A stretch of DNA of 64,000 nt, taken from Escherichia phage VerenaGrendelmeier_Bas101. Each line of letters starts with the position of its first letter. Positions within the stretch are counted from its first letter, which is position 1. Both the position numbers and the translations under genes were made by a program. Of this stretch, positions 1 to 63,850 are shown in pieces. A model generated the notes under the pieces. That model had not been told where the DNA came from, searched no databases, and saw nothing but the letters and a program-made list of their open reading frames with translations. The stretch is taken from sequence record PQ850631.1. One strand, 5' to 3'.

Positions 1-1
1 C

Positions 2-781
2 CCATCCAACGCTATTGCGATGGCCTATCGTCGTGAGATGAAAGGTCTTTGCTATGCGATGATTGACGACTATCAAGCAGGAATTGCTGAGTGGCTTGAA
101 AAGAAGCAGGTGAAAAAGTTCTTTGCGCAAGACTCTGCTGATTCAACTTTTCAGACCTTGATGAAGCGCCTTCAACTGAAATGGGCAAAAGCATTCGCCC
201 GTGTTGGGTCAAAGATTGCTGCAGATTTCATCAAGTCAGTTGAAAAGGGTGCGACTTCTGCTACATTCGCAAGTCTTAAATCTGCAGGAATAGAAGCGCC
301 AAAAGCCACATATAATAAATTCGTTGAGAACACTCTTAAAACAAGCGAGACGTTCAACACGACTCTAGTGACTAAGGTTGGCGAGGATATTCACAACAGG
401 GTGTACGAAGCGGTGATGCTTTCGCTGACTTCGCCAGACCCAGCGCAGCAAGGCACATCCGGCATTCAGGCGGCACTAAGGAATGTAAAACAATTCTCTG
501 CAAAACGCGTAGACCTTATCGCCAAAGACCAAACGAGCAAACTTTATTGCGTATTAAGTGATGAAAGGATGCGACAGAATGGCGTTGAGGAATTTGAGTG
601 GGCGCATTCAGGAGCAGGCAAAGAGCCGCGAATATCACATGAGCACGTCGACGGCATGAGATTCAAGCTTGATGACAAACGCTTATGGGAAGTAGGTGGA
701 GAACTTAAGTTCAAAAAGGGTGACATCGGTCCTCCTGGATGGGCAATACACTGCAAGTGCAGAAAAATACCAATTATCTGA
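2..781 (+). CDS. head morphogenesis protein, MuF/SPP1 gp7-like (5'-partial at window edge)
   Basis: Frame is open from the window start. C-terminal motif HSGAGKEPRISHEHVDGMRF...PPGWAIHCKCR is typical of the Mu F head morphogenesis domain. Confidence 0.65.
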   Translation, partial: PSNAIAMAYRREMKGLCYAMIDDYQAGIAEWLEKKQVKKFFAQDSADSTFQTLMKRLQLKWAKAFARVGSKIAADFIKSVEKGATSATFASLKSAGIEAPKATYNKFVENTLKTSETFNTTLVTKVGEDIHNRVYEAVMLSLTSPDPAQQGTSGIQAALRNVKQFSAKRVDLIAKDQTSKLYCVLSDERMRQNGVEEFEWAHSGAGKEPRISHEHVDGMRFKLDDKRLWEVGGELKFKKGDIGPPGWAIHCKCRKIPII

Positions 782-788
782 GGTCATT

Positions 789-1709
789 ATGACGATACCA
801 ATCAACACATTCCCTCTATCTGGACAAACTCCAGTCTTGCCTGCGGTGTATGCTAATGGCTTGGCAATTGTCTCAGAATTCACTTCTGATAAAAACTTGA
901 TTGTTCCACTGAGCCCGCCGCTTGCATCAGGGTATAACTCAGTAGGTCAATTCTTTATGATTGGCAATGATGGCGATTCGACCAGCAAGCCTAACCTGAC
1001 ATTGTCTGTGCCTAAGATGAACATCACAGACGTTCAAACTGGCTTGACTGCATCAACAATCACCATTGCTTTTGGTGAAGCAGTGATCATAGGTATGGAG
1101 TCTGGAGGGTCGAAAAACGCTGTCGCAGTCAAAGTTGTGAAAACCAGCGGCAACCAATACACGTTACCAGCGGCAACAGCTTCCGTTCTTGGTGGCGTCA
1201 AAATAGGCACCGGAATAAGCGTAGCAGGTGATGGTACAATCAGCGTCACCCAATACTCATTGCCGATTGCCTCAGCATCTACTTTAGGCGGCGTAAAGGT
1301 CGGTACAACTCTATCAATTGATGGGTCTGGTGTGCTTAATGCAGCAGCAAGTACCGTCCAGAATGCCACTAATAGCGTCAGCAATCCTCCAACAACTTTG
1401 GTCAATCTGGCAACCTTAAACCTTCCTGCAGGGAAATGGCTTGTAACAGCAAGTCAGTTGACTGTCGCGACAGCAGGCGTTCAAGCGAATACCGGAATTA
1501 CAGTCAAATTGTCAACAAGCAATTCAGATATTACGGATGATGCATTTGCCATGTCAGCTGGAATTCGGGCTGCAGGTCGCTTCGGCGGCAACATCCCAAC
1601 AAAAGTAATTACTCTTGCCGCGCCTGGTAATGTGTATTTAAACTATCAGTGCACCGACGCGTTGACATCTACCGTTTACGGACAGATCACCGCAATTAAG
1701 CTGAACTAA
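789..1709 (+). CDS. structural protein with tandem fiber-like repeats
   Basis: GAGG RBS 5 nt upstream of ATG. Internal ~32-aa repeats (PAATASVLGGVKIGTGISVAGDGTISV / PIASASTLGGVKVGTTLSIDGSGVL) resemble fiber-type repeats. Confidence 0.55.
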   Translation: MTIPINTFPLSGQTPVLPAVYANGLAIVSEFTSDKNLIVPLSPPLASGYNSVGQFFMIGNDGDSTSKPNLTLSVPKMNITDVQTGLTASTITIAFGEAVIIGMESGGSKNAVAVKVVKTSGNQYTLPAATASVLGGVKIGTGISVAGDGTISVTQYSLPIASASTLGGVKVGTTLSIDGSGVLNAAASTVQNATNSVSNPPTTLVNLATLNLPAGKWLVTASQLTVATAGVQANTGITVKLSTSNSDITDDAFAMSAGIRAAGRFGGNIPTKVITLAAPGNVYLNYQCTDALTSTVYGQITAIKLN

Positions 1710-1719
1710 AGAGGAAGTT

Positions 1720-1857
1720 ATGCAAAAGATTATTCAGTCACGTTATGTTAAAGTGCGAAATATTAATTGCAACTCTTTGCTTTCTTGGAAATGGGCTGTT
1801 TATGACTCGATGTTGATTGGCGTTTTAGTGGCAGGAGTGCTATTTAATATTCACTGA
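1720..1857 (+). CDS. small hydrophobic protein (45 aa)
   Basis: ATG preceded by GAGGAAG RBS; C-terminal hydrophobic stretch MLIGVLVAGVLF. Below the ORF-track size cut-off. Confidence 0.3.
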   Translation: MQKIIQSRYVKVRNINCNSLLSWKWAVYDSMLIGVLVAGVLFNIH

Positions 1858-1890
1858 ATTCATCGGCAAAGGATTGCCGCGAGTTTTATA

Positions 1891-2160
1891 CGTATAATGA
1901 CGTATCATCCGTATCAAGTAAGTTGTTGTTTTCAAAAGAATCTTACGGATGATACGCGTTGCCGCCGTACCATATAGGAATTCAAATAAATTAATTTAAA
2001 ATTATATATCTAATTTAATTTTATTTTTTTATAAACTCTTATATATGAAAAGTATCCGTATCATCCGTATCATCCGTAGCACACCAGTGATAGCGCGACT
2101 TATACACCGATACGGATAAAAATACGCCTCATTTTATCCGTATCATCCGTATCACACTAA
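1891..2160. repeat. iteron-like region: at least 8 copies of the 9-10-mer TCATCCGTA(TCA), both orientations, flanking an AT-rich tract (1981-2050)
   Basis: Copies at 1905-1916, 1943-1953 (rc), 2052-2078 (three tandem), 2109-2118 (rc), 2135-2154. Shares blocks with 54327-54615. Confidence 0.7.
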
Positions 2161-2211
2161 TAAAGGCGCGGCTATATCGGTTGTTATACATATTCAAACC
2201 ATAATTATTGT

Positions 2212-2240
2212 TTGCCTAAGTTTTTTTCATTAGATATAAT
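2212..2240 (+). promoter_or_regulatory. sigma70-like promoter TTGCCT-17-TATAAT for the structural operon
   Basis: -35 at 2212-2217, 17-bp spacer, -10 at 2235-2240, about 25 nt upstream of the 2264 start. Confidence 0.4.
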
Positions 2241-2263
2241 ACACAATACTTATTTGAGGGTGG

Positions 2264-3685
2264 ATGCGAATGCAAACGGCACGCGAAATTGACAAAAATG
2301 GATTCTTGACGATTATGGGTTGTCCAATTTCGTCATTTGGCATTTTTGATTATTCTGCTGGTCAAGTTGGTCTTGATGGTGATCCGAATCGCATCGTAAA
2401 AGTCTATCGCCCTGAGTCAGCGGTGAAAGACCCCGAAGCGATAGATTCATTCAAAAATATCCCTTTCATCGACAATCACGAAATGCTTTCTGGATTTGAA
2501 GGTGATGAGGATAACACGGCACCCGAAGAGTATGGTGTCGATGGCGTTCTAACTGGCAATGTTTATTATGACAAGCCATGGATGCGCGGCGACCTTAAAG
2601 TGTTCAGCCGTCGTCTTAAGAAGGCCATTGATTCTGGAAAGGTTGACTTGTCTTTGGGCTATGACTGTGAATTCATCATACAGTCTGGAGAGTTTGACGG
2701 GCAGCCGTATGAAGTGGTGCAGACAACTCTTCGCGGCAACCACATTGCTCTCGTGGACGTTGGTCGAGTACCAGGTGCACGGGTGCTGGATGGTCGTTGC
2801 TTTGACCATCTTTGTTTGACGACTGTAACACCATCCAACGAGGATTTAGACATGCCAAAACCGTTAAAAGGTAAAGCGCGTGATAATGCTGTTGAACAGC
2901 TGAAATCACTGATCCCTGCGCTCGAACAATTTCTGAATGAAGAGAGTGCTGAAGCTGCTCATCAGGACGAAGTTGAAGTGAAAGCAGAAGAGAAGGACTC
3001 AACCGAAAATCGTGAAGAAGTAATGGTTGATCCAGAAGTCAAGGCAGAAGCAGAAGAAACCCCAGAAGGTGAAGAGAAGTTTGAAGTTGAAACTGAATCT
3101 CACGCTGACGGCGAACTTCCGCAATTGATCAGCCAAATCGAAGCACTTATTGCAAAACTGAAAGGTGGCGCGGTAGGTGATGAAGAAGAAGTTGAAGCCG
3201 AAGTCAAAGACGAAGAAGAAGTTGAAGTCAAGGCTGAAGATGTATCACCTTGCGACAAAGCTGAAGATGTGGTTAGCGGCCTGCAAAACAGCAACGTAAA
3301 GGGGGCTTCGGTCGAAAAAGATGACAAACCGACAAAAGCGGCGAAAGCGTCGCCAGGTCCAGCAAAAGGGGAACACTCAATGGCATCTGATTCAGCAGTT
3401 GCTGCTTTCTACGCTGATTCTGCTCGTAAGAATAGCCTCTACCAGCGCCTGTCTAAAGTTGTTGGTGCCTTTGATCATGCAACTATGGACTCCAAGTCCG
3501 TAGCGAAATATGGCGCTAAAAAGTTAGGCTTGAAGTGCGTTGATGGTGCTGAGTTTGACGTGGTGGATAATTATCTGCGCGGCGTTGAGCACGGTCAAAA
3601 ACAGCGTGTAGTCGCAAAACAAAAGGCCGCTGCGGATTCTGCAGCAACTGACGAAGCATTTGAAGCTTGGTTGAAAGGGGAATAA
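2264..3685 (+). CDS. capsid maturation protease / scaffolding-like protein (DUF2213-like N-terminal domain, acidic repeat C-terminal half)
   Basis: N-terminal 200 aa resemble phage prohead protease-like domains. C-terminal half is highly acidic with tandem EEEVEAEVKDEEEVEVKAED repeats. An in-frame ATG at 2270 has better RBS spacing. Confidence 0.5.
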   Translation: MRMQTAREIDKNGFLTIMGCPISSFGIFDYSAGQVGLDGDPNRIVKVYRPESAVKDPEAIDSFKNIPFIDNHEMLSGFEGDEDNTAPEEYGVDGVLTGNVYYDKPWMRGDLKVFSRRLKKAIDSGKVDLSLGYDCEFIIQSGEFDGQPYEVVQTTLRGNHIALVDVGRVPGARVLDGRCFDHLCLTTVTPSNEDLDMPKPLKGKARDNAVEQLKSLIPALEQFLNEESAEAAHQDEVEVKAEEKDSTENREEVMVDPEVKAEAEETPEGEEKFEVETESHADGELPQLISQIEALIAKLKGGAVGDEEEVEAEVKDEEEVEVKAEDVSPCDKAEDVVSGLQNSNVKGASVEKDDKPTKAAKASPGPAKGEHSMASDSAVAAFYADSARKNSLYQRLSKVVGAFDHATMDSKSVAKYGAKKLGLKCVDGAEFDVVDNYLRGVEHGQKQRVVAKQKAAADSAATDEAFEAWLKGE

Positions 3686-3687
3686 AC

Positions 3688-4305
3688 ATGATTTTCCAAA
3701 CTAGTGTAGGCCGTCAATATACAACTGGCTTTCCTGGCGACATCGTTCGCGACGGCCCACAGCGTGGGAAGCCAGGCCGAATCGTTAGCGCCAACGACGG
3801 TGCAAACGTAAACGCCATCAGCCGTGTGTTTGGTTTTAAGGCTGACGTGTCATTAATGGGTACTGGCCAAACCAAAACCTTGGGCGCGCAGGACTTTGAA
3901 GTTGAACTGGGCGGCACCAATTACTATGGCATCCTTGGCAACAGCAAGCGTTACGCTCTGTATGGCAACTCTACTGGTCCTTTGGGTGCCAGCATGGTTC
4001 TGCCTCAATATAGCGAAGGCGAGTTCTATGATATGTGCACGGGCCTCGTAGTTGAAGTATTCAACCCAAGCACCAGTCCGCAGACGCTGAACTACGGCGA
4101 CCTGCTCGCTTATGTACCTAAAGGCATTTCCAGCGGTAACAACCCGAACAACTTGCCTATCGGTGCAATTATCGCCTATACTGGCTCACTGCCAACTGGC
4201 ATGGTTGCCATTCCAGGCGGTATCGTGATTGACCCGACTGCTATTGCCCTTTCCGGCCCAAGCGTCCAGTCTTCCACTTATACCATTGTACAATTGACTC
4301 GTTAA
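3688..4305 (+). CDS. head protein of unknown function (possible decoration/cement protein)
   Basis: AAGGGG RBS then ATG at 3688; lies between protease/scaffold and major capsid genes. Confidence 0.4.
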   Translation: MIFQTSVGRQYTTGFPGDIVRDGPQRGKPGRIVSANDGANVNAISRVFGFKADVSLMGTGQTKTLGAQDFEVELGGTNYYGILGNSKRYALYGNSTGPLGASMVLPQYSEGEFYDMCTGLVVEVFNPSTSPQTLNYGDLLAYVPKGISSGNNPNNLPIGAIIAYTGSLPTGMVAIPGGIVIDPTAIALSGPSVQSSTYTIVQLTR

Positions 4306-4319
4306 TAGGCAGGTGAATA

Positions 4320-5459
4320 ATGACTCGCATTAGCCAAACACACTCTCGCCTCCCAGCGAGCAAGGTGCGCCCTTTTGATATGCAATCCGTTACTGACGCG
4401 GCTGTTTCCCAGCTTGCTCGTATCGGTATTGTGTTTGATTCCGCGATTGTGCGTGATCAGATTGAGCACTTAAACCGTGCAGGCGCTTTCCGCGTAGGTG
4501 ACGCCGCGTTTACTGCGCCGCAGACTACTCCGTCAATCCCGACCCCGTTGCAATTCCTGCAGCAGTGGCTGCCTGGCTTCGTCAAAATCATGACCGCTGC
4601 TCGTAAAATCGACGAGCTGGTTGGTATTGATACCGTTGGTCAGTGGGAAGATGCAGAAATCGTTCAGGGCATCGTTGAACCAGCTGGCACCGCAGTTGAA
4701 TATGGTGATTTCACATCTATTCCTCTGGCAAGCTGGAACGTAAACTTTGAACGTCGTTCTATCGTTCGTGGCGAAATGGGCATGGCAGTTGGTATGCTGG
4801 AAGAAGGCCGCGCATCCGCTATGCGTCTGAACTCCGCAGAAACCAAGCGCCAGCAGGCTGCTGTATCTCTGGAAATCATGCGTAACGCAATCGGCTTCTA
4901 TGGTTGGTACAACGGGAACAACCGCACATTCGGCTTCCTGAATGATCCAAACCTGCCAGCAGCGATGACTTCCAACACCACTTCCGGCTGGGCTACTGCG
5001 ACTTTCCAACAGGTAACTGCAGACATCCGTTTGATGGTTCGTCAAATTCGTGTGAACTCTCAGGACCAGATTGATCCAGAGAAAGTTGACATGACTCTGG
5101 CGCTGCCGACTAACTCTATCGATTGGCTGTCCAACACCACTGACTTCGGTATTTCTGTACGTGACTGGATCACCCAGACTTATCCGAAGATGAAGATCAA
5201 ATCTGCACCGGAACTCAACGGCGCACTTGGCAGTGACCCGACTTTCTTGAACGTGGCATACCTGTACGCCGATCACATCGATTCCTCAATCGATGGTTCA
5301 AGCGATGATGGTTCCGTATTCAGTCAGCTGGTTCAAACCAAGTTCATGACTCTGGGCGTTGAAAAGCGTGCTAAGAGCTACGTTGAAGACTACGCAAACG
5401 CAACAGCAGGCGTTCTGCTCAAGCGTCCGTTCGCAGTCGTCCGTATGACTGGTATTTAA
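4320..5459 (+). CDS. major capsid protein
   Basis: 379 aa, position after scaffold, strongly optimised codon usage, followed by a hairpin; resembles the DUF2184-type capsid family. Confidence 0.7.
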
Positions 5460-23177: not shown

Positions 23178-23822
23178 ATGATTAATGCAAACGTGATATC
23201 TAAAGGGACCGGATGCAGCATGGATGTCGCAGAGAAATGGGTGGACCCTTTCAAGCAGGCTTGTGAGCACTACGGAATCAAAAGCAAGAACGCCATCGCG
23301 GCGTTGCTTGCAAACGTAGGAGTGGAAACAGGCAGTCTGAAGACATTTGTGGAAAACTTGAATTATTCCGCTCAAGGTCTTGCTAATACATGGCCTAGCC
23401 GTTACAGCGCCAGCGGTCGTTTCGGCGGTGCACCCAACTCCTTGGCATTGTCGATTGCCCGTAAACCAATGGAAATCGCCAATAATACATATGCAAACCG
23501 CATGGGCAACGGTTCGGTAGCATCGGGAGACGGTTGGAAGTACCGTGGCCGTGGTGCCATTCAGCTGACTGGAAAGGATAACTATGCAGATTATTCAAAG
23601 CAATCAGGCTATGACGCATTGAACAATCCTGATATTCTGACTGAACCAAAATACATCGCTGACAGCGCGGCATGGTTCTTTAAGAATAGCGGCTGTATTC
23701 CTCTTGCCGATGCGGGTGCATTTGATTCGACTGTTAAGCGGATTAACGGGGCCGCGCCGAATACGGCTAACCATGGGGATTTGCGACGGAAGCGTTACAA
23801 GGATGCACTAGCAGTTATGTAA
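23178..23822 (+). CDS. endolysin, glycoside hydrolase family 19-like
   Basis: Motif YRGRGAIQLTGKDNYADY and AAWFFKNSG consistent with GH19. Confidence 0.75.
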   Translation: MINANVISKGTGCSMDVAEKWVDPFKQACEHYGIKSKNAIAALLANVGVETGSLKTFVENLNYSAQGLANTWPSRYSASGRFGGAPNSLALSIARKPMEIANNTYANRMGNGSVASGDGWKYRGRGAIQLTGKDNYADYSKQSGYDALNNPDILTEPKYIADSAAWFFKNSGCIPLADAGAFDSTVKRINGAAPNTANHGDLRRKRYKDALAVM

Positions 23823-23823
23823 G

Positions 23824-23854
23824 AAAAAGGCCCATATGGGCCTTTGTTTATTTT
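23824..23854. terminator. bidirectional rho-independent terminator
   Basis: Palindrome GGCCCATATGGGCC flanked by A-tract upstream and T-tract downstream, between convergent genes. Confidence 0.7.
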
Positions 23855-24078
23855 ACGGCTTCAACCTGGACGGGCGGCGCGGAGCTTGTATCAATGTCTG
23901 GCAAGTCGAAGTAATACCCCGCCATGCCAATCACGCCAACAATCGCGGCCCGTGCCACCTTGTTGCTAATTGACTCCCCAATAAGCTTTACCAACAGGGA
24001 CAAGATTTGAGACGTCAAAGCCTTTTTCAGCCTTTTGTTTTCTTCCAAATCTTTCTGCATAACTACCACCCATGTCAA
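23848..24078 (-). CDS. small membrane protein (one TM)
   Basis: Hydrophobic segment AAIVGVIGMAGYYF. Confidence 0.4.
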   Translation of the reverse strand: MTWVVVMQKDLEENKRLKKALTSQILSLLVKLIGESISNKVARAAIVGVIGMAGYYFDLPDIDTSSAPPVQVEAVK

Positions 24079-24617
24079 CGCACATCCTGTGTCTTAACAT
24101 TACCTGAAGCATCTCTTAAGGGCAGTGGATAGTAGGCCATTTGGTAGTCTGATACGCCTTCAACATGATAAAACACGATTACGTCTTTGCTGTTGATGAG
24201 CATGTTAACGACATCTGATTTATCTTCTGGAGTAAGTATGAGTGCGCCGCCTGTCCTGCTGTCTACTGCAACAGGGTATGTCTTGTCGACAAGGCCGCTG
24301 TCCAATGTATTATACCTGACAACGATTTCAGGGGCATCAACTTTTGCAATTGACATTCCGAACACAAACGACACGACTTGGCGACCGCGATCATTCATTA
24401 CGCACATCTTTTCCTTGTCAAACCTTTCCTTTATCACATCGTATTTGTTCCAGCAAAATTCGAACGATTGGCCGTTGTTAAAATATCGAGTTAATACTTT
24501 TGCATTGCTGTTTGGCGGCGTAAACATACTTTCAGCCGCAGCACTTTTGGTGAAGAACAAAACTGTCAGCATAGCCATGATGATGATCAAAACAATCTTT
24601 AAATTTTTTGATTTCAT
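24075..24617 (-). CDS. secreted protein with N-terminal signal peptide
   Basis: MKSKNLKIVLIIIMAMLTVLFFTKSAAAES resembles a Sec signal peptide. Confidence 0.5.
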   Translation of the reverse strand: MKSKNLKIVLIIIMAMLTVLFFTKSAAAESMFTPPNSNAKVLTRYFNNGQSFEFCWNKYDVIKERFDKEKMCVMNDRGRQVVSFVFGMSIAKVDAPEIVVRYNTLDSGLVDKTYPVAVDSRTGGALILTPEDKSDVVNMLINSKDVIVFYHVEGVSDYQMAYYPLPLRDASGNVKTQDVR

Positions 24618-24793
24618 TATAATTCACCTTTTGATTACGAATATTAATAGTATAGGCCGAAGGTTTTGAAAGTAAATAAGGCGAAAGGTAAATAAAAGAA
24701 AAGCCGGAGATTTCCGGCTTTATGTATACACTGCAGATTTAATTCTATAAAACGGCGCGATAGATTATCCGCACCAATTATTTATCCAGTGTC

Positions 24794-25771
24794 TTAAAAA
24801 TACTCCATATCGGTAATATCACGGAAGCATTTATACAAAGCAGAGCGCGGCACATCGACAATGCCAAAGTTAAAGAATTTATATGTAAGATACTTGTTGC
24901 GATAATTCTCGCGATTCTCCCAAAGCATTTTTCTCTCTGCCATAGGCATTGAACCAGCGGAGACGCGGAAAGGAATCATTTCGCCTTTCTCATCAACATA
25001 TTTTGGATTGACGACTACGAATGAGCCAAGGTATCCTTTTGCGACTAATCCTTCAGCCTCTTTTGAACGCTTAGTGCGACCCAACTCATCAATGAATGCT
25101 TCGTTGTTGTTCTCCATCATCTCAACGAAGTCTATGATCAGTCCTTCTTCATCGGTCCACGGCTTGTCCTTCCACACATCACGTGACTTTGGCGTCGCGC
25201 GGCCATGCTTGTATTTACCCGTCCAAGACTTGCCATACAAGCCTTCATAGCCAAGCTGGTCTGCTTCGATTTGCATTGCCGCGTACTGCTCCATATTTTC
25301 GATGTTGCGATATTCGAGAGCGCGAAGGAATGGGCGTCGACCATGGTTGATGAGGTGCTGATTGACTTCAGCAACTCTAGCGCGATAGTTTGCATAACGC
25401 TTTTCAAAAGGCAAATCAGGGTCGCTGAAATCATCAAACACCCACCATGTAAAGTTAGTGATTGCATCAGTATTCATGCATGCAGTATAGGCCTGTTGCA
25501 TGACGTTCTTATCATTTGGATTGCCGTCGATTAGCTCTCCATCAAGTCCGTGAATTAATTCACCCAAGAAGAGGAACTCTTTTTTGATTTGAATGTTTCG
25601 CAGTGCCATGCCGGACGTGCCCATTGGCAAGTTGTCATACGCCATTGCGCGTATGCCATCGACCTTGAATGACAATCCGCAAGGCAGCGGCACGTCTTCG
25701 CCGCGCTCGATTATTTGCTTACGCTGGCAACCCTTCATTGGTTTTAATGCTTTGATTTCTCCTGCCATCAC
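24794..25771 (-). CDS. ATP-dependent DNA ligase
   Basis: Nucleotidyltransferase motif I KVDGIRA; also GELIDG and EGLVAKG. Confidence 0.65.
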   Translation of the reverse strand: MMAGEIKALKPMKGCQRKQIIERGEDVPLPCGLSFKVDGIRAMAYDNLPMGTSGMALRNIQIKKEFLFLGELIHGLDGELIDGNPNDKNVMQQAYTACMNTDAITNFTWWVFDDFSDPDLPFEKRYANYRARVAEVNQHLINHGRRPFLRALEYRNIENMEQYAAMQIEADQLGYEGLYGKSWTGKYKHGRATPKSRDVWKDKPWTDEEGLIIDFVEMMENNNEAFIDELGRTKRSKEAEGLVAKGYLGSFVVVNPKYVDEKGEMIPFRVSAGSMPMAERKMLWENRENYRNKYLTYKFFNFGIVDVPRSALYKCFRDITDMEYF

Positions 25772-26361
25772 TCAAACTCCTTATTCATCACTTGTTCCAG
25801 CGCATAGGCGTAAGCCTGATCAGTCGATTTGATGAATGTGCCGTTGTACATGACACCTTTTCGGTCTTTAATGTCTTCGTAGGCCGCTTGCGCACAGTCG
25901 GATAAGCGAAGGCCATAATCATGAGCTACGCCGGAAAGGTAATCGGATGCGGCCATGATGGTCACGTCAATATCCATGGTCTGATTCTTAGCGATTGCAT
26001 CACCAAGTCGTCCAAGGGTCTTTGCCAGGCGAAGGATAAATGAATGAGGGTGAGCACCTTTATCAGCGCAACCGCCGCCATTAATGTTTTCGATTTCAGT
26101 ACCGTTTTGCGCTGCCAGGATGGTCAACACAACAAGGCAATCGCCGATGTCGTCCTTAATTGCTGCCTGCAAGTCACAGATGGCTTGCTCTGTATATCCA
26201 ATTTCAGGGTCGAAGAACACAAGGTCATGGAGTTGATCAACGTGGTCGGTTAACTCCCCGAACTCGCTGATAAGCTTCGGGTATTGGTCCTTAAGGTCGC
26301 AACCTTGGATGATGTTACGGTCAGAAGCCCACTGGCGAATGTTTGCATAAATCTGTTTCAT
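25768..26361 (-). CDS. MazG-like nucleotide pyrophosphohydrolase
   Basis: IRQWASDRNI, LISEFGELTDHV and IGDCLVVLTILAAQNG match the MazG-type EExxE helical pattern. Confidence 0.5.
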   Translation of the reverse strand: MKQIYANIRQWASDRNIIQGCDLKDQYPKLISEFGELTDHVDQLHDLVFFDPEIGYTEQAICDLQAAIKDDIGDCLVVLTILAAQNGTEIENINGGGCADKGAHPHSFILRLAKTLGRLGDAIAKNQTMDIDVTIMAASDYLSGVAHDYGLRLSDCAQAAYEDIKDRKGVMYNGTFIKSTDQAYAYALEQVMNKEFE

Positions 26362-26876
26362 TTATTTTCCTTTGATGCATTGAATTGATCGATTTTTATT
26401 TTAGCCTGATTATAAGTATCAATCAAGCTATTAACTTTCTCTTTTAATCGATTTGTTTCTGCGGCGAACTGAACAAGAAAACTGACATCTTCTTCTGATA
26501 GTCCACAGTTTCCTTCTGGGATAGAGAGGCGTCCAGTGGTCGCAGAGTCGGGCATACTCCTGAGTAACTCACGGGAGCAGCTGAGTTGCGCGCGCAACTT
26601 GATATTCCCAGACTTGTAACGAGCAATAGTGTCATCAGCAACCAGTTGCGCTTCCTGGCGACCCTTCTCATATGCCGATGCCGATTCAACCTGTAAAGAT
26701 GCAATTTGCTCTTCGAGTGCATTTATCTTGTCCTTACGCTCATTAAGCGATGTCAGATATTGATTATCCTTGACCAGTGATGCGTTGGTTTGCTGCAGGT
26801 CTTCAACGTATGATCCAGCGGCAAACGCGCCAACAAGGGCCAGAATCTTCAGGAGCGGTACAATTCTTTCTATCAT
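26358..26876 (-). CDS. Rz: i-spanin (Rz-like)
   Basis: N-terminal TM (ILALVGAFAAGSYV) followed by coiled-coil periplasmic domain; contains an embedded lipoprotein ORF. Confidence 0.65.
   Translation of the reverse strand: MIERIVPLLKILALVGAFAAGSYVEDLQQTNASLVKDNQYLTSLNERKDKINALEEQIASLQVESASAYEKGRQEAQLVADDTIARYKSGNIKLRAQLSCSRELLRSMPDSATTGRLSIPEGNCGLSEEDVSFLVQFAAETNRLKEKVNSLIDTYNQAKIKIDQFNASKENK
26444..26671 (-). CDS. Rz1: o-spanin (Rz1-like) lipoprotein, embedded in the Rz frame
   Basis: Alternative frame inside 26358-26876: MRRVARKRNWLLMTLLLVTSLGISSC with lipobox Cys; Pro-containing mature part. Confidence 0.55.
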   Translation of the reverse strand: MRRVARKRNWLLMTLLLVTSLGISSCARNSAAPVSYSGVCPTLRPLDASLSQKETVDYQKKMSVFLFSSPQKQID

Positions 26877-26894
26877 GATGCACCAGATAAATAA

Positions 26895-26916
26895 AAGGCC
26901 GCCAATCGGCAGCCTT
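26895..26916 (-). terminator. rho-independent terminator (minus strand)
   Basis: 9-bp stem with one mismatch; minus-strand transcript followed by UUUUAUUUAU. Confidence 0.5.
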
Positions 26917-26933: not shown

Positions 26934-27794
26934 TTAAAACTCTTCTGCGTCGGTCGGAGTTTCATTGACAGGACCAGCGGCACCGCTTGCTTCTTCCTGC
27001 TTGCTGCGGTCAATGTTAACGTTGCCGCCAACTACGTCATTGTGGAATGCCTTGGCGACTTCGTACAGACCTTTATCCTGCACCAGACCTTCCAGCTCAA
27101 ACTTAAGAACTGACCAGGTGTTGCCGTCTTTGGACTGAGATGCAGTGCCCATGCGAACAATGTTCATAAAGGTCGGCGGCGTTTTCAGACCCTGCGGAGT
27201 CTGAACTTTCTTCTGCTGCAGAGCGGTCATCAGCATGCGAGACGGCTTGATCATGGAAGAAGTCAGAGACAGCATTGCGCTACCAAATTCACCAGTTTCT
27301 TCGTTCAACAGAATTACGAAGTGGTTGCGTGTATCTGCGTAGTAAGGCGATTTCTTCTCGTGCACCTTGCCGTTTTCGTCCGGCACGAATACCTTACCGT
27401 TGATCTCAACAGCGCGGCCTGCCGCGACTTCTGCATCAACGTGCTCTTTGGTGAATTCACCTTTAAAGCCTTTATCATCGGACTCGCGACCGCCCCAAAG
27501 GATGAAGGTGCGTTTGAATGCGCAAGGGATGATCTGCACGCCTTTCTTGCCGTCATACAACTCACCAGTAACGGTGTTGTAAAGCATGCCAGCTTTTGCG
27601 CCAGGAACGTGTTTTGGATCATCTTCGTCGACCATAGGAGACATCTTCTGCAGTACGACGATAAAAGGAATGGCATACGCATCGGCATCGGCACCTTCAA
27701 AACCAGCGCCAAAATCGGTCATGTCGACAAAATCAGCCATAGCGGACATCTGGGTGTTTTTCACTGCAACTTCGGTGGTTTCTTTCTTAGACAT
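26934..27794 (-). CDS. putative single-stranded DNA-binding protein (acidic C-terminal tail ending in Phe)
   Basis: 286 aa; C-terminus ...NETPTDAEEF resembles the T7 gp2.5-type acidic tail with terminal aromatic residue. Confidence 0.4.
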   Translation of the reverse strand: MSKKETTEVAVKNTQMSAMADFVDMTDFGAGFEGADADAYAIPFIVVLQKMSPMVDEDDPKHVPGAKAGMLYNTVTGELYDGKKGVQIIPCAFKRTFILWGGRESDDKGFKGEFTKEHVDAEVAAGRAVEINGKVFVPDENGKVHEKKSPYYADTRNHFVILLNEETGEFGSAMLSLTSSMIKPSRMLMTALQQKKVQTPQGLKTPPTFMNIVRMGTASQSKDGNTWSVLKFELEGLVQDKGLYEVAKAFHNDVVGGNVNIDRSKQEEASGAAGPVNETPTDAEEF

Positions 27795-28747: not shown

Positions 28748-30271
28748 TTAATTCATCTTTTTGCCGTCGAGGATGTGATCAGCAAGCATAGACTTCATAC
28801 TTAGTGATCGCTGAATTTCTTCGTCGATGGTATCAACACCAATAAAATCAACATACAACACGCTTGATTTGGTGCCGATGCGGTGATTTCGGTCTTCGGA
28901 TTGCTTGCGCAGCTCGTTGTCATAGTTGCAAGAATAATAGATTGCCAAGTCGGCAGCGGTAAGCGTGATTCCGATGCCTGCCGCTGCAGCGTGGCAAACC
29001 AACACCTGTGTTCCACCATTCGCGACTGTGTTCTTCTGGAAGTCATCAATTAAGAACTCGCGCTGCTCTTTGGACGTTTCACCGTTGTATACACCAGTGA
29101 CCACGCCTTCAGACCCAAGCCAGTCCTTAATCTGGTTCATCTCTTCCTTAAAGATGGCCCAAACGATGAATTTGCGCTCTGGGTCGTCTTCCAGCACCCC
29201 TTCCACATAGTCCTTAAAGGCCGTGAATCGTGGGTTGTCTTCCATGTAGACCATCTCATCATACACCTTAACAAAGCCTGATGTCACCTGCTTCATCTTA
29301 GTGCGAGATGCGATCATCTCAAACTTAACGTTTTCTTCTTCGCCTTTGTACTCCATCAGATAGTTGTACTCATTCTTGAGTTCATCGTATACATCGCGCT
29401 GCTTAGGAGACAACTCGAAGTCGATAAACTTGTACACCTTCTCTGGAAGGTCCGGCAAGTATTCCGCTTTTGTCGCACGGAAATAGTGCGGCTCCATCAG
29501 CCGGATAAGCTTGTCAAGGTTTTTATACATCGGTCGGCCAAACTGGTCTTTGCGCGGCACTTGCGGAATGCCATAACCGTTGCCGCCGATTTTCTTGAGA
29601 ATGGCCTGCATCTCTGGGTCGTGCGCTTCAAGCAGCACTGTGAATTCAGAGTTGAATGCACGGAACGATTTGGTGCCGAGCAAGCCAGCTTCAAGGAAGT
29701 GATACTGCATGTAAATATCAGCAGGCGAGCGCGGCAGCGGCGTGCCGGAAAGTATGCGACGGGCCTTTGCCAGCCGTCCCAATTCTACAACCTTGATGGA
29801 GCGTTTGGCTGTGTTATTTTTGATACGCGTCGATTCGTCAATGATCATCAAACAGCGGTACTTCTTCAGGACAGACTCGATGTGTTGATAACCGACTGGT
29901 GTGTTGACAGTATCGATGTTGAATGAGAAGATGCGCGCAGGCACTTCACCTTCAGGATAGTGATCAGCAAACATCTTCTCCCAAATGGCTTTACCCTTTT
30001 TAGTTTTCATCTTGTCATTTCCGCGCCAGTAATGACCAATCCATTTAATGGAAAGGTGTTCTGGTGCTTCACGACGAATCCAGTTCGAGTGGACACCGTT
30101 AGGAGCGATGACAACCATGGCATCAAATGCGCCAGCGGCGAAGTGTTTTTCAAACTCTGCCAAAGCAGTCCAGGTTTTACCAAGACCCTGTTCCATAAAA
30201 TAAGCAAAGTATTTTCTGCGGCCTGCTTTATCAAGCGCCAATAATTGGTGGCGCATCCCTTGTGTTTTCAT
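28748..30271 (-). CDS. SNF2-family helicase
   Basis: Walker A QGLGKT, DExx-like IIDESTRIKN, LSGTPLP, motif VI EDRNHRIG. Confidence 0.7.
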   Translation of the reverse strand: MKTQGMRHQLLALDKAGRRKYFAYFMEQGLGKTWTALAEFEKHFAAGAFDAMVVIAPNGVHSNWIRREAPEHLSIKWIGHYWRGNDKMKTKKGKAIWEKMFADHYPEGEVPARIFSFNIDTVNTPVGYQHIESVLKKYRCLMIIDESTRIKNNTAKRSIKVVELGRLAKARRILSGTPLPRSPADIYMQYHFLEAGLLGTKSFRAFNSEFTVLLEAHDPEMQAILKKIGGNGYGIPQVPRKDQFGRPMYKNLDKLIRLMEPHYFRATKAEYLPDLPEKVYKFIDFELSPKQRDVYDELKNEYNYLMEYKGEEENVKFEMIASRTKMKQVTSGFVKVYDEMVYMEDNPRFTAFKDYVEGVLEDDPERKFIVWAIFKEEMNQIKDWLGSEGVVTGVYNGETSKEQREFLIDDFQKNTVANGGTQVLVCHAAAAGIGITLTAADLAIYYSCNYDNELRKQSEDRNHRIGTKSSVLYVDFIGVDTIDEEIQRSLSMKSMLADHILDGKKMN

Positions 30272-43430: not shown

Positions 43431-43535
43431 ATGAAAGCCGTAAAGAAATACACATTAATCATTTCCCTTGTTATCATCCTGGGGCTATTATATGTATTGG
43501 ATATGGCATATTATTTGGCAGGGGTGAGTAAATGA
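43431..43535 (+). CDS. very small membrane peptide (34 aa)
   Basis: MKAVKKYTLIISLVIILGLLYVLDMAYYLAGVSK; ATGA overlap with next gene. Confidence 0.25.
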   Translation: MKAVKKYTLIISLVIILGLLYVLDMAYYLAGVSK

Positions 43536-56766: not shown

Positions 56767-56906
56767 AATAAACTCCTAGTTGGGAGAGGCGTTAACGACC
56801 TATTCGTTAACTCATCCCGTCCCGATATGAGTACATTATAATATAGTGTAGAAAAAAGTAAAGCACTTTTTCGATAAAAATGCGATAAATTATTTTATCT
56901 TTTTTC

Positions 56907-56934
56907 TTTACTTCTTCGTACACTCGCGTATACT
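56907..56934 (+). promoter_or_regulatory. sigma70-like promoter TTTACT-16-TATACT with conserved GTACACT spacer and TTGTTTATATCGAGA leader
   Basis: Near-identical architecture to 57305-57333. Confidence 0.45.
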
Positions 56935-57304: not shown

Positions 57305-57333
57305 TTTACTTCTTCGTACACTAAGACTATAAT
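57305..57333 (+). promoter_or_regulatory. sigma70-like promoter TTTACT-17-TATAAT, paralog of 56907-56934
   Basis: Shares CTTTACTTCTTCGTACACT and the GTTTTATATCGAGAG leader. Confidence 0.45.
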
Positions 57334-59495: not shown

Positions 59496-59589
59496 AATTC
59501 ATGCCGCAGCAGCGTGGATGATTGCGTAAACGATTCCAAACAGGGCGACAATACAAACCGTGCCCCAAAATGCAAAGCGTCGCGCCTCT

Positions 59590-59877
59590 TTATCCATTAG
59601 AGCCTTCTCCGCTGTTAATGTTGTCCAAAATCAAGGTTGGAATTTCATCTTGAGTCCTGACTTTGTAATGCGAAGGCATTTTGCTTTCTAACAATGCCTG
59701 TTCAGCTTCTCCCTTTGTCTCAAAGAGCGGGATGCACCAATCAACTGCATTGCCGTGTTCATCACCCTTGACGGCCTTCAAAAAGACAAGGCGCTTGTCC
59801 GCAGGGTCGATGCCGCAAATTAAGTATTTTGGAAGAGATTTTGCTTTCTGAGCTTTATCAATATCTTCAAATTTCAT
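59590..59877 (-). CDS. hypothetical protein (95 aa)
   Basis: Start at ATG with GAGGTG RBS. Confidence 0.4.
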   Translation of the reverse strand: MKFEDIDKAQKAKSLPKYLICGIDPADKRLVFLKAVKGDEHGNAVDWCIPLFETKGEAEQALLESKMPSHYKVRTQDEIPTLILDNINSGEGSNG

Positions 59878-59958
59878 AAAACACCTCACTTGTTAACGTA
59901 TAATGAGTATAACTTAATAGCGCATAAAGTAAAGGCGCTTTTCAGCGCCTTGAGTGAA

Positions 59959-62330: not shown

Positions 62331-62672
62331 TTAATTTCTTTTGAGAGGAATATGACGGTGGCTGCCATTATTTGGTTTAATAATGAGCATAAAAACGATT
62401 AGAAAGATGATGGCTGATATACTTAATTCAATCAGCGCGGCTTGAGATATAGATTGATCTTCATGATACTGCTTTTGCATTTCTGCTTTCTTCTGAGCGC
62501 AAACTTCAGGTGATATGTAATCACCTTTTGAGTTGCCATAATAAATTTCGCCGTTTTCAGAAATCAGTCTGCCGCAAATATCCGTTTCAGCCTTTGCGCT
62601 CGACATCATAATAACGGTGCCGATGATAGCGGCGATAGTCCAGATTAACAGTTGTGATAAAGTGTTGTTCAT
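62331..62672 (-). CDS. membrane protein with N-terminal signal peptide and C-terminal TM anchor
   Basis: Start at ATG with AGAGG RBS; MNNTLSQLLIWTIAAIIGTVIMMSSAKA; C-terminal LIELSISAIIFLIVFMLII. Confidence 0.45.
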   Translation of the reverse strand: MNNTLSQLLIWTIAAIIGTVIMMSSAKAETDICGRLISENGEIYYGNSKGDYISPEVCAQKKAEMQKQYHEDQSISQAALIELSISAIIFLIVFMLIIKPNNGSHRHIPLKRN

Positions 62673-63105: not shown

Positions 63106-63316
63106 TTTCTTTCCACTCCACAAATGTGCTATCGCTTGTTTCTCTATTTAGCAGGTATCTGCCGCGCATTCCATGAAGGCTAAACTCAACCGTCGATGGA
63201 TTAGATTTTGAAAGCCATATAGGTTGCCCGTCGAATGGACCGCCTATGCACGTGTATTTAGCTTTTGGCTCACTCCTTTTGGGCCGTTTCGCCCGCTCTT
63301 TGATTGATAGTCTCAT
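63095..63316 (-). CDS. hypothetical basic protein
   Basis: 73 aa ORF. Confidence 0.35.
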   Translation of the reverse strand: MRLSIKERAKRPKRSEPKAKYTCIGGPFDGQPIWLSKSNPSTVEFSLHGMRGRYLLNRETSDSTFVEWKENGK

Positions 63317-63531
63317 CAGTCTTCACCTTGAGATTCCAGACAAGTAAGGACAAGCCAAGTCATCGGAAGAATCAAAACCAGAGAAATGAGGGACCAGATA
63401 GACCAGCACAGGATGACAGACTTGAATGTGTGAACGTCGCCAAACGCAGCAGTAAAACAGAATCCCATTACAAATGCAATAGCTGTGGAATGGTTATCTA
63501 TGGCTTTGATGGCGCGGTCGATGAGTTTCAT
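63316..63531 (-). CDS. small two-TM membrane protein (holin-like candidate)
   Basis: 71 aa, two hydrophobic segments (AIAFVMGFCFTAAFG; ILCWSIWSLISLVLILPMTWLVL), charged C-terminus. Confidence 0.4.
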   Translation of the reverse strand: MKLIDRAIKAIDNHSTAIAFVMGFCFTAAFGDVHTFKSVILCWSIWSLISLVLILPMTWLVLTCLESQGED

Positions 63532-63619: not shown

Positions 63620-63850
63620 TCAGTGTGAAGACGCAATTAATGTGCCACTTCCCTTTGCGAAAATCTCAACGCCTGGCGGGATTGTGACTGTACCAACAAC
63701 TGCGATTCCGATCAAATTGTCATCGGCCTTTTCCCCAAAACAAATCTCAGCGGCACCGCCGCGAACTTGAATAAGTGCTCCTGATACGTTTTCAGCAACA
63801 GAGATTACGGAAGTATAAGAGGGAGTGAGTTGAATGTTGACTAGGGCCAT
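63620..63850 (-). CDS. hypothetical protein
   Basis: AGGAG RBS upstream of ATG on minus strand. Confidence 0.4.
   Translation of the reverse strand: MALVNIQLTPSYTSVISVAENVSGALIQVRGGAAEICFGEKADDNLIGIAVVGTVTIPPGVEIFAKGSGTLIASSH

What the first reader, a model, noticed from the sequence alone, without database searches (positions are those of the whole stretch)
26358..26876. Embedded Rz/Rz1 spanin pair located 2.5 kb from the endolysin, on the opposite strand
The i-spanin (N-terminal TM plus coiled coil) fully contains a lipoprotein ORF in another frame (lipobox ...LGISSC), the classic embedded architecture. The GH19 endolysin is at the end of the rightward structural operon, separated from the spanins by a convergent terminator, a ligase and a MazG-like gene. 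No holin lies next to the endolysin; holin-like candidates are 23848-24078 and 63316-63531. Lysis genes are therefore dispersed over at least three loci and two strands.
Basis: partly seen in the sequence, partly recalled or inferred. Interest (0 to 1): 0.45.

Follow-up and report, generated by a model that had tools for sequence, protein, structure and literature searches.

The report
Known embedded spanin pair, Wifcevirus phage
The window is an E. coli Wifcevirus phage, and the flagged genes are a real nested pair of outer-membrane-disrupting lysis genes (spanins) that was catalogued for this phage group in 2018, so the finding is correct but ordinary.

Summary
Window 26358-26876(-) encodes a 172-aa protein with an N-terminal membrane helix and a two-helix periplasmic domain. 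Its +1 frame holds a fully embedded lipoprotein ORF, 26444-26722(-), with lipobox ISS|C at Cys43.

The embedded ORF is not chance. It is intact in 28 of 28 Wifcevirus genomes and in four metagenomic relatives whose i-spanins are 56-66% identical. It is homologous to the embedded o-spanins of Yersinia phage PY54 and Pantoea phage LIET2. It also suppresses synonymous change in the host gene (0.18 vs 0.54 per column, p=4e-9).

It is already known. Kongari et al. 2018 list the ECML-117 orthologues as an embedded spanin pair. GenBank records for Mansfield (2019) and Bas98-100 (2025) annotate both genes at this position.

The spanins sit in a conserved operon with MazG and DNA ligase, behind a conserved terminator.

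The holin remains unidentified, so "three loci" is unproven.

Minor new points:
- A conserved SD+ATG favours the long o-spanin start.
- Pbunavirus relatives carry a different membrane protein in this slot.

The parts
26358..26876 (-). i-spanin (Rz-like), 172 aa. TMD is residues 5-23 (nt 26808-26864). The periplasmic domain has two helices. Cys100 and Cys124 are conserved.
   Evidence: ORF. Hydrophobicity. PHROG 1327 'Rz-like spanin' E=4.6e-26. AF2 helices 5-106 and 128-170. Both Cys are invariant in the alignment. tblastn to PY54 Rz-like spanin E=6e-14. Annotated as i-spanin/Rz-like spanin in Mansfield and Bas100.
26444..26722 (-). o-spanin (Rz1-like lipoprotein), fully embedded in the +1 frame. 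It is 92 aa from ATG 26722, or 75 aa from the alternative ATG 26671. The lipobox Cys codon is 26594-26596. The mature lipoprotein is 50 aa with a second Cys, at position 57 of the 92-aa form (residue 15 of the mature protein).
   Evidence: Lipobox match. Conserved in L005-L008. Intact in 28/28 Wifcevirus records, and 49-51% identical to the embedded ORFs of PY54, P744, P840, LIET2 and Nafs113. Synonymous-site constraint. Annotated as 'o-spanin' in Bas100 and Mansfield. The 75-aa version is used in Kongari 2018.
26731..26735 (-). Shine-Dalgarno AAGGA, 8 nt upstream of the o-spanin ATG at 26722.
   Evidence: AAGGA plus the ATG 42 codons before the Cys are kept in all five lineages, although the overlapping Rz residue varies (N/Y/H/D/N, always an xAT codon followed by G).
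26895..26916 (-). Intrinsic-terminator-like hairpin plus U-tract between the upstream Pam3-gp34-like gene and the i-spanin start.
   Evidence: Scan. A 9-11 bp GC-rich stem plus U-run sits at the same place in all five lineages. Annotated as a terminator in WFC and Mansfield.
25768..26361 (-). MazG-like pyrophosphatase gene. Its start overlaps the i-spanin stop (ATGA).
   Evidence: PHROG 1992 E=5.8e-62. Junction sequence. Same order in L005-L008 and JG024.
24794..25771 (-). ATP-dependent DNA ligase, the last gene of the spanin-MazG-ligase unit.
   Evidence: Sub-threshold Pfam ligase domains. Annotated as ligase in relatives. Followed by terminator-like hairpins at 24753-24776 and 24700-24721.
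24649..24676 (-). Conserved sigma-70-like promoter (TTTACT-16-TATACT) for the two-gene unit next to the endolysin.
   Evidence: conserved in L005-L007. The motif TTTACN16-19TATAMT has 5 hits in the window against 0.16 expected.
24075..24617 (-). 180-aa secreted protein of unknown function, with an N-terminal signal peptide and an AxA cleavage motif.
   Evidence: No Pfam or NCBIfam hit, and only a weak PHROG hit (phrog_35896, unknown function, E=0.032). Conserved in L005-L007 but absent from JG024.
23848..24060 (-). 70-aa PHROG 5165 protein, convergent with and adjacent to the endolysin. It is a weakly hydrophobic helical hairpin and a positional holin candidate (C).
   Evidence: PHROG 5165 E=2.3e-8. 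Homologues lie beside the endolysin in 289 Pseudomonas (Pbunavirus) records, e.g. JG024 gp48. No segment passes a TM threshold.
23826..23845 (.). Bidirectional terminator hairpin between the convergent units.
   Evidence: Terminators are annotated on both strands in Mansfield.
23178..23822 (+). GH19 endolysin, soluble (no signal or SAR segment), the last gene of the rightward tail operon.
   Evidence: PF00182 E=5.6e-7. PHROG 181 E=8.5e-70. No hydrophobic segment. Detected by MS in ECML-117 and vB_Eco4M-7 lysates (PMC7048862).
63316..63531 (-). 71-aa protein with two TMDs and charged ends. It is the best holin candidate (A) by architecture.
   Evidence: Found only in Wifcevirus. In the 76%-identical relative L016 it is the first gene of the leftward operon that is divergent from the terminase gene and contains a tail-fibre gene. 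In the window another ORF (63620-63850) lies upstream of it.
62331..62672 (-). 113-aa protein with an N-terminal signal-like TMD, a 55-aa periplasmic loop, a C-terminal TMD and a basic tail. It is holin or antiholin candidate (B).
   Evidence: No family hit. Kept in L016.

Best explanation
The locus encodes a two-component spanin with the embedded (lambda-like) gene architecture, in a Wifcevirus-type E. coli myophage.

What the sequence and comparisons show:
- The 172-aa i-spanin has an N-terminal membrane anchor and a periplasmic helix-linker-helix domain.
- The o-spanin is translated from the +1 frame inside it. Initiation is most likely at the conserved SD+ATG at 26722.
- The o-spanin has a lipobox, and Ala at +2.
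- Periplasmic cysteines are conserved in both proteins.
- The gene order is conserved, and a terminator lies upstream.

What is inferred from the established lambda Rz/Rz1 mechanism:
- The i-spanin is anchored in the inner membrane.
- The o-spanin is processed by signal peptidase II at Cys43 and sorted to the outer membrane as a 50-aa lipoprotein.
- The two C-termini pair across the periplasm, stabilised by disulfides.
- Once the GH19 endolysin has removed the murein meshwork, the complex fuses or disrupts the outer membrane. This completes lysis.

Unlike lambda, the pair is not in a lysis cassette. It is the first cistron of a translationally coupled spanin-MazG-ligase unit inside the leftward replication gene block. 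It is probably expressed by read-through of the conserved upstream terminator. That would be tolerable because spanins are inert until the cell wall is degraded.
For: Architecture.

Family:
- PHROG 1327 'Rz-like spanin' E=4.6e-26.
- tblastn to the Rz genes of PY54 (E=6e-14), Burkholderia phage Mica, and Pantoea LIET2/Nafs113.
- In PY54 the homologue is the third gene of a holin-endolysin-Rz cassette.
- The embedded ORFs of PY54 and LIET2 share the motif C..S...G.CP.(L/M)PP(L/V)D..L...ET.D(Y/F)Q..MS.FLF with the window's o-spanin.

Dual-coding selection:
- The ORF is intact with the same Cys in five lineages at 52-66% i-spanin identity and in 28/28 Wifcevirus genomes.
- Synonymous divergence is 0.21 over the mature-overlap region, against 0.41-0.69 elsewhere.
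- The per-column test gives p=4e-9.
- The mature o-spanin is 72% identical between lineages, against 41% for the pre-Cys part.
- Negative-control lipobox ORFs are not conserved.

Cysteines: Cys100 and Cys124 are invariant in the i-spanin, and the GVCPTL Cys is invariant in the o-spanin.

Prior art agrees: Kongari 2018 and the GenBank annotations.

Operon:
- The stop and start overlap as ATGA.
- Synteny is conserved.
- The terminator is conserved.
Against: - There is no experimental evidence for either protein in any Wifcevirus. The MS tables excerpted from the study of vB_Eco4M-7/ECML-117 lysates list the endolysin and the two upstream gene products, with no entry that looks like a spanin.
- Pfam Rz (PF03245) and NCBIfam give no hit for the window proteins.
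- The mature o-spanin is only modestly proline-rich (4 of 50 residues).
- The signal peptide from the favoured start has an unusually long, basic 28-aa n-region, and the start codon actually used is not determined.
- The location in a replication-gene operon behind a terminator is atypical. The expression class is inferred, not measured.
Confidence: 0.9

Rival explanations
1. The embedded lipobox ORF is a chance alternative-frame ORF that is not translated. Only the Rz-like protein is made, and outer-membrane disruption is done by something else.
For: A loose lipobox pattern arises in 1.3% of synonymous reshuffles and in two other window genes. No Pfam, PHROG or NCBIfam model hits the ORF. No proteomic detection is evident in the excerpted tables.
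Against: - The ORF, its Cys and its mature sequence are conserved across lineages down to 52% i-spanin identity, and in PY54 and LIET2.
- Synonymous sites of the host gene are constrained exactly where the mature peptide is encoded.
- A conserved SD+ATG is maintained by codon choice despite amino-acid change in the host frame.
- The chance ORFs used as controls decay in relatives.
Confidence: 0.03
2. The pair is a spanin by descent but has been co-opted for a non-lytic early function, for example envelope remodelling or superinfection exclusion. This would explain why it sits in an operon with MazG and ligase rather than with lysis genes.
For: - The operon context lies in the replication block, with translational coupling to MazG.
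- A terminator lies upstream.
- In Pbunavirus the same slot holds a different membrane protein, gp51 (PHROG 1544).
Against: - All spanin features are kept under purifying selection, including the cysteines and the o-spanin C-terminal region.
- No other spanin candidate was found. The Pbunavirus u-spanin gp08 has no homologue in the window, and no other conserved lipoprotein ORF was seen.
- A Gram-negative host requires an outer-membrane disruptor.
- T4 is a precedent for spanin genes placed away from holin and endolysin (Kongari 2018, Fig. 8 legend).
Confidence: 0.05
3. The lysis genes are less dispersed than claimed. The 70-aa PHROG 5165 protein directly beside the endolysin (23848-24060) is the holin. 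There would then be two lysis loci (holin plus endolysin, and spanins), not three.
For: - It is the only small helical-hairpin gene kept next to the endolysin from Wifcevirus to Pbunavirus.
- It stays in place even where the endolysin itself is swapped for a lambda-R-like lysozyme.
Against: - Its hydrophobic segments are weaker than those of lambda S105 on the same scale.
- It lies behind a conserved sigma-70-type promoter. The motif of that promoter recurs near the genome terminus, which suggests early expression.
- It has an acidic, proline-rich C-terminus rather than a basic one.
- A 71-aa protein with two TMDs (63316-63531) fits holin architecture better.
Confidence: 0.25

Closest known systems
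ECML-117 / Mansfield / Bas98-100 spanin pair (genus Wifcevirus)
   Same: These are orthologues: i-spanin 95-99% and o-spanin 91-99% identical, at the same position and in the same embedded +1 frame. ECML-117 is listed as an embedded two-component spanin in Kongari et al. 2018. Both genes are annotated in Mansfield (2019) and Bas98-100 (2025).
   Different: There is no biological difference. Only the chosen o-spanin start differs: 75 aa in Kongari, against 92 aa in the Mansfield and BASEL records.
Yersinia phage PY54 ORF63 (Rz-like spanin with embedded Rz1)
   Same: Detectable homology exists in both frames. The i-spanin is 29.5% identical (E=6e-14), and the mature o-spanin is about 49% identical with a shared CP.LPP.D...ET.D(Y/F)Q..MS.FLF motif. 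The embedded +1 architecture is the same.
   Different: - In PY54 the pair is the third gene of a canonical holin-endolysin-spanin cassette. Here it heads a spanin-MazG-ligase unit 2.5 kb from the endolysin, on the other strand.
- PY54 Rz hits Pfam DUF2514, whereas the window protein hits no Pfam model.
- The PY54 o-spanin has a short signal peptide (19 aa to the Cys, against 42 or 25 here).
Lambda Rz/Rz1
   Same: The architecture and presumed mechanism match: a type II inner-membrane protein with two periplasmic helices and a linker, a wholly embedded +1-frame outer-membrane lipoprotein, and periplasmic cysteines (general description in PMC6139136 and PMC5295617).
   Different: - No sequence-family membership was found: PF03245 does not hit.
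- The o-spanin is less proline-rich.
- The pair is not part of a late lysis cassette.
T4 PseT.3/PseT.2 spanins
   Same: The spanin genes lie away from the holin and endolysin genes, which are themselves dispersed (Kongari 2018, Fig. 8 legend). T4 is the known precedent for dispersed lysis genes.
   Different: T4 has the 'separated' gene architecture, not the embedded one, and the sequences are unrelated.
Pbunavirus (PB1-like) lysis genes
   Same: The genome module is shared: DUF7307 / Pam3-gp34-like / X / MazG / ligase / PHROG 5165 / convergent GH19 endolysin. Lysis genes are dispersed there as well.
   Different: - Slot X holds gp51 (PHROG 1544; Gly-rich N-terminus, coiled coil, two C-terminal TMDs; weak GTA_holin_3TM hit at E=0.018) instead of Rz/Rz1.
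- Pbunaviruses are listed with a unimolecular spanin. In JG024 this is probably gp08, which matches the census length of 133 aa and has a lipobox plus a C-terminal TMD. It lies between the terminase and portal genes.
- Neither gp08, gp10 nor gp51 has a homologue in the window.

Membership tests
Two-component spanin, embedded architecture (Rz/Rz1 type) | The i-spanin has a single N-terminal TMD (type II, N-in/C-out) and no other TMD. | tested here: met
   Only residues 5-23 are hydrophobic. An acidic stretch (YVEDL) follows the TMD. Topology itself was not measured.
Two-component spanin, embedded architecture (Rz/Rz1 type) | The periplasmic domain of the i-spanin is largely alpha-helical or coiled-coil, with two helical segments and a linker. 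| tested here: met
   AF2 gives helix 5-106, linker 107-127 and helix 128-170, with pLDDT 77.7. A coiled coil is predicted for the ECML-117 orthologue in the Kongari supplement.
Two-component spanin, embedded architecture (Rz/Rz1 type) | The o-spanin has a lipoprotein signal with a lipobox Cys, and a non-Asp residue at +2 (outer-membrane sorting). | tested here: met
   LLVTSLGISS|C-A, with the Cys conserved in all lineages. The +2 residue is Ala, Val or Lys, never Asp. Lipidation was not measured.
Two-component spanin, embedded architecture (Rz/Rz1 type) | The o-spanin gene lies wholly inside the i-spanin gene, in the +1 frame. | tested here: met
   26444-26722 lies within 26358-26876, same strand, +1 frame.
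Two-component spanin, embedded architecture (Rz/Rz1 type) | Both subunits have periplasmic cysteines available for intermolecular disulfides. | tested here: met
   i-spanin Cys100 and Cys124 are invariant. The o-spanin GVCPTL Cys is invariant. Bond formation is not testable here.
Two-component spanin, embedded architecture (Rz/Rz1 type) | The pair is required for outer-membrane disruption (a spherical-cell lysis defect in the presence of divalent cations when it is absent). | not testable with these tools
   This needs phage genetics or complementation of lambda Rz/Rz1 mutants.
Two-component spanin, embedded architecture (Rz/Rz1 type) | The pair lies in a lysis cassette next to the holin and endolysin (typical, not defining). 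| tested here: not met
   The endolysin is 2.5 kb away on the other strand, and the pair is co-operonic with MazG and ligase. T4 shows that this feature is not required.
Lambda Rz sequence family (Pfam PF03245 Phage_lysis) | A significant match to the family profile. | tested here: not met
   No hit even at E<=10. The homologue PY54 Rz reaches only E=0.0066, below the cut-off, but does hit DUF2514.
PHROG 1327 'Rz-like spanin' | A significant match to the family profile over most of its length. | tested here: met
   E=4.6e-26, residues 6-160 against profile positions 9-156 of 158.
Unimolecular spanin (T1 gp11 type) | A single protein with an N-terminal lipobox and a C-terminal TMD. | tested here: not met
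   The i-spanin has no lipobox and the o-spanin has no C-terminal TMD. JG024 gp08 does show this architecture, but it has no homologue in the window.
Holin (for candidates 63316-63531, 62331-62672, 23848-24060) | A small membrane protein with at least one TMD and charged ends, expressed late, that permeabilises the inner membrane and releases the endolysin. | tested here: inconclusive
   - Candidate A has two TMDs and charged ends.
- Candidate C is only weakly hydrophobic but is positionally conserved.
- None hits a holin family.
- No holin is annotated in Bas100 or Mansfield.
- Function is not testable here.

The most novel reading that the evidence does not exclude
The lysis system of the PB1-like supergroup (Wifcevirus and Pbunavirus) may be built differently from the cassette paradigm.
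- A conserved slot inside the replication operon, behind a conserved terminator, would serve as an exchangeable membrane-lysis-gene slot. It holds Rz/Rz1 in Wifcevirus and a holin-like 3-TMD-type protein in Pbunavirus.
- The universally conserved 70-83-aa PHROG 5165 protein beside the endolysin would be a new, weakly hydrophobic holin or endolysin-release factor.
- Lysis timing would then be set by terminator read-through and early promoters rather than by a late cassette.
Probability: 0.12. Interest if true: 0.4.

Novelty: already known. Interest (0 to 1): 0.1.

Why it matters
The result matters little in itself. It confirms, with independent comparative evidence, an annotation that already exists for this phage genus. 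Dispersed lysis genes also have a textbook precedent in T4.

The practical value is for annotation. Most GenBank and RefSeq Wifcevirus records lack the o-spanin CDS. RefSeq WFC, WFH, FEC19 and ECML-117 name only the Rz-like spanin.

The residual open question is which gene is the holin of these very fast-lysing phages. No annotated record that was inspected names one. The candidates ranked here make that question directly testable.

Tried and rejected
- Pfam and NCBIfam gave no family for either spanin. Only PHROGs recognised the i-spanin.
- The lipobox pattern alone was rejected as evidence. It fires by chance at about 1-3% per gene, and the two other hits, in 26934-27794 and 28748-30271, are broken by stop codons in relatives. 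One search was a faulty run of this control and was superseded. One search failed on a file name.
- I first took ATG 26671 (the 75-aa form used by Kongari) as the conserved start. One search showed that this ATG lies inside the conserved Rz 'AYE' motif and has no SD. The upstream ATG 26722 has a conserved AAGGA and is preserved by codon choice. I therefore now favour the long form without excluding the short one.
- A search for a holin by homology failed. Candidate A has only close relatives. JG024 gp10, gp08 and gp51 have no homologue in the window. No padloc search was made.
- The part of the genome outside the window (Bas100 1-4694) holds no convincing membrane protein: one gene there has only a weak N-terminal hydrophobic stretch. 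A holin hidden outside the window is therefore unlikely.
- Literature searches found no experimental work on Wifcevirus lysis genes.
Full report
Identity of the window

A 5.5-kb stretch around the finding is 94-97% identical over its full length to 28 E. coli/Shigella myophage genomes of the genus Wifcevirus (Bas100, WFC, FEC19, ECML-117 and others). The window covers almost the whole roughly 68-kb genome. About 4.7 kb is missing (terminase, two small genes and most of the portal gene). That missing part holds no convincing membrane protein; one gene there has only a weak N-terminal hydrophobic stretch.

Checking the observation

ORF 26358-26876(-) encodes 172 aa. ORF 26444-26722(-) lies entirely inside it in the +1 frame.

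The outer protein has these features:
- It has one hydrophobic segment, residues 5-23.
- An AlphaFold2 model from six sequences gives one long helix (5-106), a linker (107-127) and a second helix (128-170), with mean pLDDT 77.7. This is the helix-linker-helix layout described for Rz-type i-spanins.
- It matches PHROG 1327 'Rz-like spanin' at E=4.6e-26.

The inner ORF has these features:
- It carries a lipobox (LLVTSLGISS|C, Cys43, codon 26594-26596) followed by Ala.
- The mature product would be a 50-aa lipoprotein with one further cysteine.

Is it more than chance?

The pattern alone is weak evidence. Reshuffling synonymous codons of the outer gene creates a comparable lipoprotein-like ORF in 263 of 20,000 trials. 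Two other genes of 96 in the window carry one too. Comparison with relatives settles the matter.
- A protein search found four metagenomic relatives whose i-spanins are 56-66% identical. All four keep the same gene order.
- Each relative keeps an open +1 frame, the lipobox Cys at the same place, and a conserved mature sequence: C..NS.AP..Y.GVCPTL.PL..SLS..ET.DYQ..MS.FLF.
- All 28 Wifcevirus genomes keep the ORF at full length.
- The two control ORFs are interrupted by stop codons in the same relatives.
- Among identical amino acids of the outer gene, synonymous differences fall from 0.41-0.69 outside the overlap to 0.21 where the mature o-spanin is encoded. Per column the values are 0.18 against 0.54, Mann-Whitney p=4e-9.
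- The mature o-spanin is 72% identical between lineages, against 41% for the part before the Cys.
- Cys100 and Cys124 of the i-spanin and the second Cys of the o-spanin are invariant. This fits the disulfide-linked complexes described for spanins (PMC6139136).

Wider homology

The i-spanin has weak but significant tblastn matches:
- Rz genes of Yersinia phage PY54 (29.5% identity, E=6e-14) and related Yersinia phages;
- Burkholderia phage Mica, where both i-spanin and o-spanin are annotated next to a SAR endolysin;
- Pantoea phages LIET2 and Nafs113.

The +1 frames of the PY54 and LIET2 genes encode lipoproteins that are 49-51% identical to the window's mature o-spanin. In PY54 the pair is the third gene of a classical holin-endolysin-Rz cassette. 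The window's pair therefore belongs to a spanin lineage that elsewhere sits in an ordinary lysis cassette. Pfam's lambda Rz model does not hit it, so it resembles lambda Rz/Rz1 in architecture and not in sequence family.

Start of the o-spanin

Kongari et al. used a 75-aa form, which corresponds to ATG 26671. GenBank records for Mansfield and Bas100 use the 92-aa form, ATG 26722.
- In all five lineages an ATG lies exactly 42 codons before the Cys. It is preceded at 8-9 nt by AAGGA.
- That ATG is kept although the overlapping i-spanin residue varies (N, Y, H, D, N). The i-spanin codon is always xAT, followed by a codon that starts with G.
- The ATG 25 codons before the Cys lies inside the invariant i-spanin motif AYE and has no SD.

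I therefore favour 26722. This gives a signal peptide with an unusually long, basic n-region. The mature product is the same either way.

Surroundings

- The i-spanin stop overlaps the start of a MazG-like gene (ATGA). A DNA ligase gene follows.
- Immediately upstream of the i-spanin there is a GC-rich hairpin with a U-tract, conserved in all five lineages. It separates the i-spanin from a Pam3-gp34-like gene. The products of that gene and of its upstream neighbour were abundant in published lysate proteomics (PMC7048862).
- I infer that the spanin-MazG-ligase unit is expressed at a reduced level by read-through of this terminator.
- After the ligase come two terminator-like hairpins and a conserved TTTACT-16-TATACT promoter. 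This promoter drives a 180-aa secreted protein and a 70-aa PHROG 5165 protein.
- The PHROG 5165 gene ends at a bidirectional hairpin, opposite the GH19 endolysin.
- The endolysin has no signal or SAR segment, so it needs a holin.

The holin question

[quoted passage not shown] I scanned all small ORFs for hydrophobic segments.
- Candidate A, 63316-63531(-), has the best architecture: 71 aa, two TMDs and charged ends. In a 76%-identical relative it is the first gene of the leftward operon that diverges from the terminase gene and contains a tail-fibre gene. It is confined to Wifcevirus.
- Candidate C, 23848-24060(-), lies beside the endolysin. It is conserved there in about 290 Pbunavirus records, and also where the endolysin has been replaced by a lambda-R-like lysozyme. 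It is only weakly hydrophobic. Its promoter motif recurs near the genome terminus, which suggests early expression.

Its statement that no holin lies next to the endolysin conflicts with its own first candidate.

Comparison with Pbunavirus

JG024 shares the module DUF7307 / Pam3-gp34-like / X / MazG / ligase / PHROG 5165 / convergent GH19 endolysin.
- In JG024, X is gp51. It is a 201-aa protein with a Gly-rich N-terminus, a coiled coil and two C-terminal TMDs (PHROG 1544; weak GTA_holin_3TM hit at E=0.018).
- The spanin census lists Pbunaviruses with a unimolecular spanin. In JG024 this is probably gp08, which matches the census length of 133 aa and has a lipobox plus a C-terminal TMD.
- A multi-TMD protein, gp10, is the probable counterpart of a gene called 'holin' in a related genome (PMC9583000).
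- None of gp08, gp10 or gp51 has a homologue in the window.

The two sister genera have therefore exchanged their membrane lysis genes while keeping the surrounding replication module. This is a modest new observation.

Prior art and verdict

Kongari et al. 2018 list ECML-117 among embedded two-component spanins. They give coordinates and sequences that correspond to this locus. The Mansfield record (2019) and the Bas98-100 records (2025) annotate both genes. RefSeq names the i-spanin in WFC, WFH, FEC19 and ECML-117. T4 is the documented precedent for spanin genes placed apart from holin and endolysin.

The finding is correct, well supported and already known. What remains open is the identity of the holin and the timing of spanin expression.

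Noticed in passing
window 24649-24676(-), 56835-56862(-), 56907-56934(+), 57305-57333(+), 59906-59933(-): A promoter-like motif, TTTACTT-N16/17-TATAMT, occurs 5 times against 0.16 expected. Two copies directly follow a terminator hairpin. Three copies lie in the region that is the direct terminal repeat in phage Mansfield. This is probably the phage's early host-RNA-polymerase promoter class.
   Followed up: partly
L005 13065-13520 and L006 13078-13530, against window 23178-23822: The endolysin slot is exchangeable. Two divergent relatives carry a 150-aa lambda-R-like lysozyme (PHROG 90, E=3.4e-51) exactly where the window and L007 carry the GH19 enzyme. The flanking genes are unchanged.
   Followed up: partly
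L011 (JG024) 2563-3168, the slot equivalent to window 26358-26876: In Pbunavirus the position of Rz/Rz1 is held by gp51 (PHROG 1544). It has a Gly-rich N-terminus, a coiled coil and two C-terminal TMDs, and a weak GTA_holin_3TM hit. It may be an unrecognised holin-like protein.
   Followed up: partly
window 24075-24617(-): A 180-aa protein with a cleavable-looking signal peptide (AxA motif) is conserved in Wifcevirus-like lineages but absent from Pbunavirus. It has no Pfam or NCBIfam match and only a weak PHROG hit (E=0.032). It is co-transcribed with the PHROG 5165 gene beside the endolysin. It may act in superinfection exclusion or lysis regulation.
   Followed up: no
window 26444-26458 (o-spanin C-terminus): The window's o-spanin ends four residues earlier (…QKQID*) than those of the divergent relatives (…QKQTGSEIK, …QKQIDSETK). 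The extreme C-terminus is therefore dispensable or variable.
   Followed up: no
window 43431-43535(+), 59499-59597(-), 1720-1857(+): Three very small ORFs (34, 32 and 45 aa), annotated in relatives, each consist mostly of one strongly hydrophobic helix. Their function is unknown.
   Followed up: no
window 27314-27712(-) and about 28801-29049(-): Alternative-frame ORFs with lipobox-like patterns lie inside the Pam3-gp34-like gene and the helicase gene. Stop codons in relatives show that they are chance ORFs.
   Followed up: yes
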